From the NCBI GenBank assembly GCA_964349065.1, contig CAYGEY010000001.1, forward strand, positions 4,261 through 68,260: a stretch of 64,000 bases of DNA, in the 5' to 3' direction. The notes below the pieces were generated by a model that saw nothing but the letters and a program-made list of their open reading frames with translations, was not told where the DNA came from and searched no databases. The position numbers were made by a program, and so were the translations under genes. Position 1 is the first letter of the stretch; every line of letters starts with the position of its first letter. This DNA is from an uncultured Candidatus Peribacteria bacterium. Its GTDB lineage: Bacteria > Patescibacteriota > Gracilibacteria > 1-14-2-50-48-13. Positions 13,178 to 13,298 of the stretch are shown here, in pieces.

Positions 13178-13298
13178 AAACCTTTCAGACATACTATAGC
13201 GCAAGGAGTCTAGGATTGAAATGACGCAACTGTAGTGATACTACAGTGAGGAACGAAAGACGAAGACGACGATGCAATATACTGTGTATGGAAGGTTT
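13178..13298 (+). repeat. family-2 structured hairpin repeat, copy E (121 nt)
   Basis: Long imperfect outer stem (AAACCTTTCAGACATACTATAGCGC / GCAATATACTGTGTATGGAAGGTTT) around the core TCTAGGA...GACGCAACTGTA-gtgatac-TACAGTGAG...GAAGACGAC. Abuts the stop codon at 13297. Confidence 0.8.

What the first reader, a model, noticed from the sequence alone, without database searches (positions are those of the whole stretch)
13178..13298. Family-2 structured hairpin repeat (about 121 nt, 2 copies) with a conserved ACTGTA/TACAGT apical helix
Copies at 13178-13298 and 29107-29228 share TCTAGGA ... (A/C)(T/G)GACGCA-ACTGTA-[7-nt variable loop]-TACAGT-GAG(G/A)A ... GAAG(A/T)CGAC. Both cores are embedded in about 25-bp outer stems of unrelated sequence. 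Copy F adds a perfect AATTTTAC/GTAAAATT helix that copy E lacks. Both copies abut stop codons: 13297 for E, and 29105 and 29228 for F. Both start with a CTAGG-containing junction, as family 1 does. This suggests the two families are related modules using the same design, a variable clamp around a conserved core.
Basis: seen in the sequence. Interest (0 to 1): 0.7.

Follow-up and report, generated by a model that had tools for sequence, protein, structure and literature searches.

The report
Mobile hairpin repeat inserted after stop codons
The two copies are real members of a small family of about 120-base hairpin-forming repeats in an uncultured candidate-phyla-radiation bacterium; they were inserted directly after stop codons and are missing from the same sites in a close relative, so they are best read as a new family of miniature mobile DNA, not a new RNA gene.

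Summary
Both copies exist as described: E at 13177-13299 and F at 29106-29230. The 28-nt core is exact in both (0 chance matches expected), and each folds into a roughly 120-nt hairpin. A covariance model found three more copies (G, H, I) within 10 kb outside the window, giving 5 copies in about 93 kb. The hairpin is kept by compensatory changes: 18 of 35 pairs, 93.7% of cells paired, 0 of 500 shuffles as good.

The outer stems are homologous, not unrelated (67-69% identity against a 48% null). The shared TCTAGGA is out of register.

A close relative (FtsA 99% identical) lacks both window copies. Its spacers are 101 bp against 219 bp at E, and 3 bp against 122 bp at F. A more distant relative shows a clean gap of about 120 nt after the stop codon.

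Every copy abuts A(A/G)GTAA. In three copies this is the native last codon plus stop. I saw no target duplication.

Best reading: a non-autonomous palindromic mobile element, like REPIN, ERIC or RPE elements, possibly moved as single-stranded DNA. No Rfam, plasmid, phage, genome or metagenome match was found. Family 1 shares the design and behaviour but not the sequence. This is a new member of a known kind, of modest interest.

The parts
13177..13299 (+). Family-2 copy E: a 123-nt imperfect hairpin. It lies in the 3' untranslated region of the DUF4352 gene, antisense to that gene.
   Evidence: CM R2 139 bits. Relatives lack about 120 nt exactly here.
13229..13247 (+). Apical helix of E, ACTGTAGT / ACTACAGT, with a 3-nt loop. 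It sits inside the exact shared core 13223-13250.
   Evidence: The base pair at the foot covaries: A-U in E and F, G-C in G and H.
13204..13208 (+). Nearly invariant AGGAG (exact in E, F, G and H; AGGCAG in copy I). It faces CGAC at 13267-13270 (TAAC in I), giving a predicted tandem G.A mismatch closed by two G-C pairs.
   Evidence: Alignments A5 and A10. The G.A geometry is inference.
13267..13270 (+). CGAC, the 3' partner of AGGAG (exact in E, F, G and H; TAAC in copy I).
13297..13302 (-). AAGTAA: the native last codon (Lys) plus the stop codon of the DUF4352 gene, directly abutting E. Proposed target motif.
   Evidence: The protein has the same length and C-terminus in a relative without the element (P0125).
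13130..13160 (-). Canonical intrinsic terminator hairpin (CCGAGC...GCTCGG, A tract and T tract) downstream of E. It is conserved in position in the relative L015 and is not part of the element.
   Evidence: (I11).
29106..29230 (+). Family-2 copy F: a 125-nt hairpin filling the space between the convergent antiporter and DUF1003 genes.
   Evidence: CM R2 114 bits. The close relative has 3 bp between these genes against 122 bp here.
29144..29189 (+). The part of F from AATTTTAC (29144-29151) to GTAAAATT (29182-29189). This is the variable middle helix, enclosing the conserved apical module 29152-29179.
   Evidence: The same helix position is AAAAAAAGTTTTCC/GGAAAAACTTTTTTT in copy I.
29228..29233 (-). 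AAGTAA: the native last codon plus stop of the DUF1003 gene, abutting F.
   Evidence: P0261, from the relative without F, has an identical C-terminus ...QLKGK.
29103..29105 (+). Stop codon of the Na+/H+ antiporter gene, immediately 5' of F.

Best explanation
Family 2 is a non-autonomous, palindromic mobile DNA element of about 120 bp. It lives in an uncultured Patescibacteria bacterium whose nearest named relatives are Peregrinibacteria and Gracilibacteria.

Shown:
- At least 5 diverged copies exist in about 93 kb.
- Each copy is one long hairpin whose pairing is kept by compensatory substitutions.
- Conserved blocks alternate with variable helices. The conserved blocks are the TATAG/ATAT helix, AGGAG...CGAC, and the apical ACGCA(A/G)C-GTA...TAC-G.GAG module.
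- The copies are insertion polymorphisms, absent from the same sites in close relatives.
- Insertion adds about 118-120 bp directly after a stop codon, next to an A(A/G)GTAA motif.
- I found no flanking direct repeat at any of the five junctions. The size of the insertion and the unchanged stop codons also argue against a TA duplication.

Inferred:
- The element is copied by an enzyme encoded elsewhere in the genome. That enzyme recognises the folded single strand through the conserved internal-loop modules, not the termini.
- The element is inserted next to a short specific target, as in single-strand 'peel and paste' transposition of IS200/IS605 elements and the REPIN/RAYT system.
- Selection on the ability to be copied would then explain why the stems covary while the core stays fixed.
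- Once inserted, the hairpin is co-transcribed in 3' untranslated or intercistronic regions. It may act as a terminator or as a block to exonucleases. That would be a side effect, not its reason for existing.
For: Copies and structure:
- The core is exact in both window copies, with 0 matches expected by chance.
- CM searches found G (L009:20179-20306), H (L009:18433-18563, - strand) and I (L009:16832-16956, - strand). No copies were found in L011 (which adds about 10 kb beyond the window end) or in a further 9.8 kb of L017.
- On alignment A10, 93.7% of cells are paired and 18 of 35 pairs changed on both sides. None of 500 shuffles reached this, and slid controls gave 35-48% paired.
- Pairwise identity between copies is only 54-79%.

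Empty sites:
- Close relative ERZ27297709 (FtsA 99%, DUF1003 91%, DUF4352 89% identical). Its DUF4352-SNase spacer is 101 bp against 219 bp here. Its DUF1003-antiporter spacer is 3 bp against 122 bp here.
- More distant L015 has a 99-bp spacer. The alignment shows a clean gap of about 120 nt right after the stop codon, with the downstream terminator conserved.

Target:
- A(A/G)GTAA abuts one end of all 5 copies.
- In E, F and I it is the native last codon plus stop of the DUF4352, DUF1003 and RNase Y genes. For E and F the protein ends are unchanged in relatives without the element; for I this rests on the C-terminus of Bacillus subtilis RNase Y as I recall it, not on a comparison made here.
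- Only 8 of 65 genes end in ARG-TAA. The motif frequency is 8e-4 per position.

Other points:
- Orientation relative to the flanking genes is mixed. F and H are sense to an upstream gene, E and G are antisense, and F and I sit between convergent genes.
- No promoter-like site lies in the elements.
- The model strand folds better than its complement in 5 of 5 copies, with RNA and with DNA parameters.
- REPINs show the same hairpin with common compensatory changes (PMC3116915).
- IS200/IS605 elements insert 3' of a specific tetra- or pentanucleotide (PMC5027513).
Against: - No transposase of any kind was found in about 105 kb of this genome (Pfam lists; scans). The rest of the genome could not be searched.
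- The copies are 21-46% diverged although at least E looks like a recent gain. This requires several diverged source copies that were not observed.
- Copy G is flipped relative to its AAGTAA flank compared with the other four. A strictly strand-specific mechanism does not predict this without a later inversion between the arms.
- The strand on which the target lies 5' of the element is the worse-folding strand.
- For F, G, H and I, gain cannot be told from loss, because no outgroup has the same gene order.
- The relative's DNA at the E and F sites was not available. Only gene coordinates were.
- The conserved purine-rich internal loops are also what a protein-binding RNA would show.
Confidence: 0.62

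Rival explanations
1. A family of structured RNA elements selected for a host function at the RNA level. Examples would be 3'-end hairpins that terminate transcription in both directions, protect upstream mRNA from exonucleases, or bind a protein through the G.A-rich internal loops. The copies would spread by duplication or recombination.
For: - Covariation is strong in all helices, with conserved internal loops between variable helices.
- All copies sit at gene 3' ends or between cistrons. F and I sit between convergent genes, where a bidirectional hairpin could be useful.
- The stem bases are A-rich on the 5' side and T-rich on the 3' side.
- The purine-rich strand folds better in 5 of 5 copies.
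- Comparable co-transcribed repeats affect mRNA stability (ERIC), and bcr1 keeps its RNA structure by compensatory changes (PMC3184786).
Against: - Orientation relative to the transcribed strand is mixed, so the conserved purine-rich loops would be pyrimidine-rich in the mRNA at E and G.
- E is followed by a perfectly good canonical terminator that relatives also have, so E is not needed for termination.
- Close relatives do without E and F.
- There is no Rfam match even at E = 10 for E and F, or E = 1 for G, H and I.
- This reading explains neither the A(A/G)GTAA flank nor the clean 120-nt gain.
- It is not exclusive of mobility. It could be a secondary effect.
Confidence: 0.2
2. [quoted passage not shown] It would be moved by a DDE transposase that binds the two ends and duplicates a short target such as TA.
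For: - Size of about 120 bp, palindromic arms, intergenic location and presence/absence between strains, as for ERIC, Correia and RUP elements (PMC3184786).
- The sequence TA-TAAACC...GGTT-TA at E can be read as a TA duplication.
Against: - The ends are the least conserved part and the centre the most conserved. This is the opposite of end-binding recognition.
- A TA duplication would destroy the native stop codons of the DUF4352 and DUF1003 genes, yet both proteins keep the length and C-terminus seen in relatives without the element.
- The size differences of 118-120 bp at E and 119 bp at F fit the hairpin alone, not the hairpin plus a duplication.
- No direct repeat flanks any of the five copies.
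- No parent insertion sequence was seen.
Confidence: 0.1
3. Folded-DNA recombination sites, like integron attC sites or XerCD-type hairpin substrates, placed after open reading frames.
For: - Imperfect palindromes of attC-like length directly after stop codons.
- AAAC...GTTT near the ends.
- Sequence varies while the structure is kept.
Against: - The ends do not fit the attC core consensus RYYYAAC / GTTRRRY. They read TATAAAC / GTTTACT in E and GGGAAAC in H (by eye).
- The flanking genes are scattered housekeeping genes on both strands (RNase Y, Obg, antiporter), not a one-directional cassette array.
- No integrase appears in the Pfam lists.
Confidence: 0.03

Closest known systems
REPINs (REP doublets forming hairpins), mobilised by RAYT tyrosine transposases
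   Same: - A non-autonomous element of about 100 nt that forms one long hairpin in single-stranded DNA or mRNA.
- Extragenic location.
- Compensatory changes across the hairpin are common (PMC3116915; here).
- No classical target duplication.
- A single trans-acting enzyme encoded elsewhere is expected.
   Different: - In REPINs the conserved parts are the two REP sequences near the ends and the spacer in the middle varies. Here the apical and internal modules are conserved and the outer stem varies.
- REPINs are GC-rich and occur in hundreds of near-identical copies. These copies are AT-rich, few in the sampled region, and 21-46% diverged.
- No RAYT gene could be looked for.
IS200/IS605-family single-strand transposition and its miniature derivatives
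   Same: - Insertion next to a short specific sequence.
- No terminal inverted repeats are needed.
- Hairpins are read on one strand (PMC5027513).
- Here all 5 copies abut A(A/G)GTAA, and one strand always folds better.
   Different: - Those elements carry two separate subterminal hairpins, not one hairpin spanning the whole element.
- The orientation relative to the target should be fixed, but copy G is flipped.
- No TnpA gene was seen in about 105 kb.
ERIC, Correia and RUP-type bacterial MITEs
   Same: - About 105-155 bp imperfect palindromes in transcribed intergenic regions, in either orientation.
- Variable between strains.
- Can alter mRNA fate (PMC3184786).
   Different: Those have conserved terminal inverted repeats and a TA duplication. 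Here the ends are the least conserved part and a TA duplication is not compatible with the intact stop codons.
Rickettsia palindromic elements (RPE)
   Same: Palindromic repeats of 105-146 bp, in several unrelated families, in a reduced genome (PMC3184786). That their copies are strongly diverged is my recollection, not read in that paper. Here there are at least two families in one small-genome bacterium and another in its relative.
   Different: These copies sit immediately after stop codons and leave the proteins unchanged.
bcr1 of the Bacillus cereus group, and SPRITE of Streptococcus pneumoniae
   Same: - bcr1: about 155 bp, mobile between strains, transcribed, with its structure kept by compensatory changes.
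- SPRITE: an about 105-nt terminator-like repeat (PMC3184786).
   Different: - bcr1 has 5-bp direct repeats at its flanks. None are seen here.
- There is no sequence similarity to anything in Rfam, plasmids or phages.

Membership tests
Classical MITE (DDE-mobilised) | Conserved terminal inverted repeats that are the best-conserved part of the element | tested here: not met
   In the outer helix only 3 of 11 pairs never vary. The conserved blocks are internal.
Classical MITE (DDE-mobilised) | Short direct target-site duplication flanking each copy | tested here: not met
   No direct repeats at the five junctions. Stop codons and C-termini are unchanged. The size gain of 118-120 bp equals the hairpin alone.
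Classical MITE (DDE-mobilised) | A parent insertion sequence with the same ends in the genome | not testable with these tools
   Only about 105 kb of the genome was reachable, and it holds no transposase Pfam hit.
Mobile element in general | Presence/absence at orthologous sites in close relatives | tested here: met
   E and F are absent from ERZ27297709 by spacer length (101 against 219 bp; 3 against 122 bp). E is absent from L015 by alignment.
IS200/IS605-type single-strand element | Insertion next to a specific tetra- or pentanucleotide without duplication | tested here: met
   A(A/G)GTAA abuts all 5 copies. 3 of 3 gene-adjacent copies are at ARG-TAA gene ends, while only 8 of 65 genes end that way.
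IS200/IS605-type single-strand element | Fixed orientation of the element relative to the target, and of the active strand relative to replication | tested here: inconclusive
   4 of 5 copies share one orientation relative to the motif and to the G-rich strand. G is flipped. GC skew shows no switch in the region.
IS200/IS605-type single-strand element | Y1 (HUH) transposase TnpA, or a RAYT, encoded in the genome | not testable with these tools
   The whole genome is not available. None was found in the sampled loci.
REPIN | Two inverted, highly conserved REP sequences near the ends with a less conserved spacer | tested here: not met
   The conservation pattern is the reverse.
REPIN | Long hairpin kept by compensatory changes | tested here: met
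   18 of 35 pairs changed on both sides, 0 of 500 shuffles as good.
Any Rfam RNA family (including ribozymes, 6S and Y RNA) | Covariance-model match | tested here: not met
   Nothing at gathering score in the window. At E up to 10 around E and F, and E up to 1 around G, H and I, only chance-level hits to unrelated families appeared.
Integron attC site | R''/R' core sites RYYYAAC...GTTRRRY, and a one-directional cassette array with an integrase | tested here: not met
   The ends do not fit the consensus. The neighbours are scattered housekeeping genes on both strands.
Independent small-RNA gene | Own promoter, and consistent orientation with a terminator | tested here: not met
   No promoter-like site in or beside E or F. 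A bidirectional terminator lies 17 nt upstream of E on the model strand. Organisms with other promoter types are not covered by the scan.

The most novel reading that the evidence does not exclude
Families 1 and 2, and the different hairpin in the relative strain, could be members of an undescribed class of structure-defined mobile hairpins in candidate-phyla-radiation bacteria. In this reading a folded single strand is recognised through conserved G.A-rich internal-loop modules, and not through its ends. It is pasted without duplication directly after A(A/G)GTAA stop-codon contexts by an enzyme unrelated to known transposases, or the elements move through an RNA intermediate.
Probability: 0.1. 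Interest if true: 0.7.

Novelty: new member of a known kind. Interest (0 to 1): 0.35.

Why it matters
Candidate-phyla-radiation bacteria have small, tightly packed genomes, and my two literature searches found nothing on small repeats in them. Here at least two, and probably three, families of hairpin repeats turn over between strains that are about 99% identical in FtsA. They insert exactly at stop codons, even into a 3-bp gap between convergent genes. This gives a handle on recent genome dynamics in an uncultured lineage, and markers for strain typing. It also offers a testable case of target-specific, duplication-free insertion in which the conserved part is the middle of the hairpin and not its ends. 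It would become more important only if the mobilising enzyme proved to be new.

Tried and rejected
- **Collection scans.** The strict core gave one chance hit inside a Lachnospiraceae coding region in genome contigs and none in metagenomes. A relaxed pattern fitting E, F, G and H (TATAGNNCNAGGAG-N12-17-ACGCARCTGTA) gave one chance hit in a GC-rich coding region and none in viral contigs. The family is not detectable outside this organism with these patterns.
- **Rfam.** No match at gathering or permissive thresholds.
- **BLAST.** No match against plasmids or phages.
- **More distant syntenic relatives.** L007 and L008 (antiporter 64-65% identical) have no copies and no comparable repeats.
- **K-turn at AGGAG/GACGA.** Rejected by eye, because F has A where the essential G would be.
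- **Hammerhead or hairpin-ribozyme resemblance** (CAGUGAG, GAAGUC, GUAUAUU). Rejected: no Rfam hit, and the motifs are not conserved in G, H and I.
- **Small ORF after the AGGAG 'Shine-Dalgarno'.** Rejected: the start codons and frames are not conserved between copies.
- **Composite transposon formed by G and H around the 519-aa gene.** Rejected: the protein looks like a membrane glycosyltransferase (weak Glyco_tranf_2_3 hit at E = 0.044, below threshold, plus D..D and QxxRW-like motifs by eye) and has no transposase signature.
- **A 7-nt terminal repeat AAGTAAA/TTTACTT belonging to the element.** Rejected for E and F, because the motif is the native gene end there; judged the same for I from the conserved RNase Y C-terminus, which was not compared here. 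It is reinterpreted as a target.
- **Core inserted into pre-existing terminator hairpins.** Rejected for family 2: the whole 120-nt hairpin is missing from relatives. It is left open for family 1, whose spacer differences of 60-106 bp do not match cleanly.
- **Sequence relationship between families 1 and 2.** 19 of 20 pairwise comparisons fall within the shuffle null.

Full report
**1. The observation**

The two stated copies are real. The core GACGCAACTGTA-N7-TACAGTGAG is exact at 13223-13250 and 29152-29179. With up to three mismatches it occurs nowhere else in the window, and 0 matches are expected from shuffles.

Each copy folds into one long imperfect hairpin of about 120 nt. The energies are -40.0 and -35.1 kcal/mol, with z-scores of -5.3 and -4.5. 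F has the AATTTTAC/GTAAAATT helix and E does not.

E abuts the stop codon of a DUF4352 gene (13297-13299, - strand). F fills the gap between the stop of a Na+/H+ antiporter gene (29103-29105, +) and the stop of a DUF1003 gene (29228-29230, -). The copies are identical in three independent assemblies.

- The outer stems are homologous. They are 67% and 69% identical, against a shuffle null of 48 +/- 5%.
- The shared TCTAGGA is out of register in the structural alignment.

**2. Where the window comes from**

Exact protein look-ups place the window on ENA metagenome contigs of sample ERZ27247837, and the same sequences are in Logan assemblies ERR3094302 and ERR3094292. Homologues of the antiporter and of Obg are from Patescibacteria, and the named ones are mostly Peregrinibacteria and Gracilibacteria. 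The nearest antiporter homologues outside the species are only 64-65% identical. The elements lie among ordinary chromosomal genes.

**3. More copies**

A covariance model built from E and F found two strong copies just beyond the window start. These are G (L009:20179-20306, +) and H (L009:18433-18563, -).

A model built from the four copies then found a fifth, diverged copy. This is I (L009:16832-16956, -; 30.5 bits, E = 3e-4). It has the same architecture, at -42.7 kcal/mol and z -7.4.

No further copy appeared in L011 (about 10 kb beyond the window end), in a further 9.8 kb of L017, or in the relatives' loci. That makes five copies in about 93 kb. Pairwise identity between them is 54-79%.

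**4. Structure and conservation**

On the model-guided alignment of the five copies, 93.7% of cells form standard pairs. 18 of 35 pairs changed on both sides. None of 500 shuffles reached this, and sliding the 3' partners drops pairing to 35-48%. A MAFFT alignment of four copies, made independently of the model, gives 13 of 35 compensatory pairs. One example is the foot of the apical helix, which is A-U in E and F and G-C in G and H.

Conservation is interleaved along the hairpin:
- The outer helix and the middle helix vary.
- The TATAG/ATAT helix is conserved.
- AGGAG opposite CGAC is conserved. This is predicted to be a tandem G.A mismatch between two G-C pairs, which is my inference.
- The apical ACGCA(A/G)C-GTA...TAC-G.GAG module is conserved.

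The model strand folds better than its complement in all five copies, with RNA and with DNA parameters. Part of this comes from its purine richness.

**5. Insertion polymorphism**

A close relative is present in sample ERZ27297709. Its FtsA is 99% identical, DUF1003 91% and DUF4352 89%. Its DNA could not be fetched, but its gene coordinates were given.

| Site | Spacer in relative | Spacer here |
|---|---|---|
| DUF4352 to SNase (copy E) | 101 bp | 219 bp |
| DUF1003 to antiporter, convergent (copy F) | 3 bp | 122 bp |
| Family-1 copy A | 23 bp | 94 bp |
| Family-1 copy B | 27 bp | 87 bp |
| Family-1 copy C | 18 bp | 124 bp |

A more distant relative (L015, DUF4352 67% identical) has a 99-bp spacer at the E site. 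The alignment shows a clean gap of about 120 nt starting right after the stop codon, with the downstream terminator hairpin conserved. With this outgroup, E is a gain in this lineage.

Downstream of obg, where this genome has copy I, the close relative carries a different hairpin. It has a perfect 14-bp clamp, GAAGAGATATATTG/CAATATATCTCTTC, around an unrelated core. It gives only a weak family-1 model hit of 18.9 bits.

**6. Target**

A(A/G)GTAA lies directly outside one end of all five copies.
- In E, F and I it is the last codon plus the stop of the DUF4352, DUF1003 and RNase Y genes.
- The DUF4352 and DUF1003 proteins have the same length and C-terminus in relatives that lack the element. 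The motif is therefore native sequence and not part of the element.
- Only 8 of 65 predicted genes in the region end in ARG-TAA. The motif occurs at 8e-4 per position and strand.

No direct repeat flanks any copy. A TA duplication would destroy the stop codons. The size gain of 118-120 bp equals the hairpin itself.

Four copies share one orientation relative to the motif, and G is flipped.

**7. Context and transcription**

On the - strand, the E locus reads in this order:
- the stop codon;
- E;
- a canonical terminator (13160-13130);
- a promoter-like site (13128-13101);
- the SNase start codon.

E is therefore transcribed in antisense form within a 3' untranslated region. A bidirectional terminator lies 17 nt upstream of it on the model strand.

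For the other copies:
- G lies between two genes of the same strand, also antisense.
- H is sense, between a gene stop and a tRNA-Leu gene.
- F and I lie between convergent genes.

No promoter-like site lies in the elements. This mixed orientation argues against a strand-specific RNA gene.

**8. Interpretation**

The best-supported reading is a non-autonomous palindromic mobile element.

The conserved centre, the covarying stems, the specific flank and the lack of a duplication do not fit a classical MITE with conserved ends and a TA duplication (PMC3184786). They fit better with elements handled as folded single strands:
- REPINs, where compensatory changes across the hairpin are common (PMC3116915).
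- IS200/IS605-type insertion 3' of a specific short sequence (PMC5027513).

This mechanistic step is an inference. No transposase was found in about 105 kb, and the rest of the genome could not be searched.

An RNA-level role as a terminator or stabiliser remains possible as a secondary effect.

**9. Relation to family 1**

Family 1 has four copies, all on the + strand: 11937-12039, 14753-14855, 29792-29891 and 44857-44959. It shares the design and the behaviour of family 2. It shows no sequence similarity to family 2: 19 of 20 pairwise comparisons fall within the shuffle null.

**10. Novelty**

There is no match in Rfam, plasmids, phages, 185,579 species-representative genomes, JGI metagenomes or IMG/VR with the patterns used. 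The sequence family is new. The kind, a small palindromic intergenic mobile repeat, is known. Interest is modest.

Noticed in passing
window 11937-12039, 14753-14855, 29792-29891, 44857-44959: Family-1 hairpin repeat, four + strand copies. It has a conserved core of about 55 nt (CTCGATCTCTTGNCGTAACGAACGTGAAGNCAATGGAGAG) and covarying outer arms. Three of the four sit exactly between convergent stop codons. Copies A, B and C are absent from the close relative, judged by spacer length.
   Followed up: partly
L016:1621-1699 (relative strain, downstream of obg): A different clamp-plus-core hairpin (perfect 14-bp clamp GAAGAGATATATTG/CAATATATCTCTTC) occupies the site where this genome has family-2 copy I. 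The same gene-end site is hit by different elements in sister strains.
   Followed up: partly
L009:18433-20306 (about 7.6-9.5 kb before window position 1): Copies G and H flank a 519-aa membrane protein gene in inverted orientation, like a composite element. The protein looks like a family-2 glycosyltransferase and has no transposase signature. H also lies 40 nt upstream of a tRNA-Leu(UAA) gene.
   Followed up: partly
whole window and L009:1-19500: GC skew keeps one sign over the whole 64 kb regardless of gene orientation. It does not switch at dnaA (L009:11720-13210). Either the origin is not next to dnaA or the strand asymmetry is unusual.
   Followed up: no
window 60259-60683 (-): tmRNA with an unusually long predicted tag peptide, AKNTFARANDLLASAFGYSPVAA.
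   Followed up: no
window 35803-44196 (+): A 2797-aa protein with SLH and Big_7 domains. It has internal imperfect repeats of about 75-95 nt at 41.9-42.7 kb.
   Followed up: no
window 57089-57132; 57403-57480 and 58776-58853: A perfect 44-bp palindrome, and a 78-nt AT-rich repeat (85% identical) 1.4 kb apart, both in intergenic DNA.
   Followed up: no
window 16106-23047 (-): Six consecutive genes without a significant Pfam match (145-584 aa; the smallest has only a below-threshold TSP_3 hit), conserved in order in the relatives. Possibly a lineage-specific surface or pilus operon.
   Followed up: no
L008:11800-11885 (GCA_030430105.1): In a relative whose antiporter is 64% identical, the spacer after the antiporter gene is rich in CTAGG/CCTAG/CTAGA words. 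It holds no family-1 or family-2 copy.
   Followed up: no
window as a whole: The window spans two separate ENA contigs (k141_940037 and k141_27254 of ERZ27247837). It therefore comes from a more contiguous assembly. One Logan contig (ERR3094302_1372867) ends inside family-1 copies A and C, as expected for repeats.
   Followed up: partly
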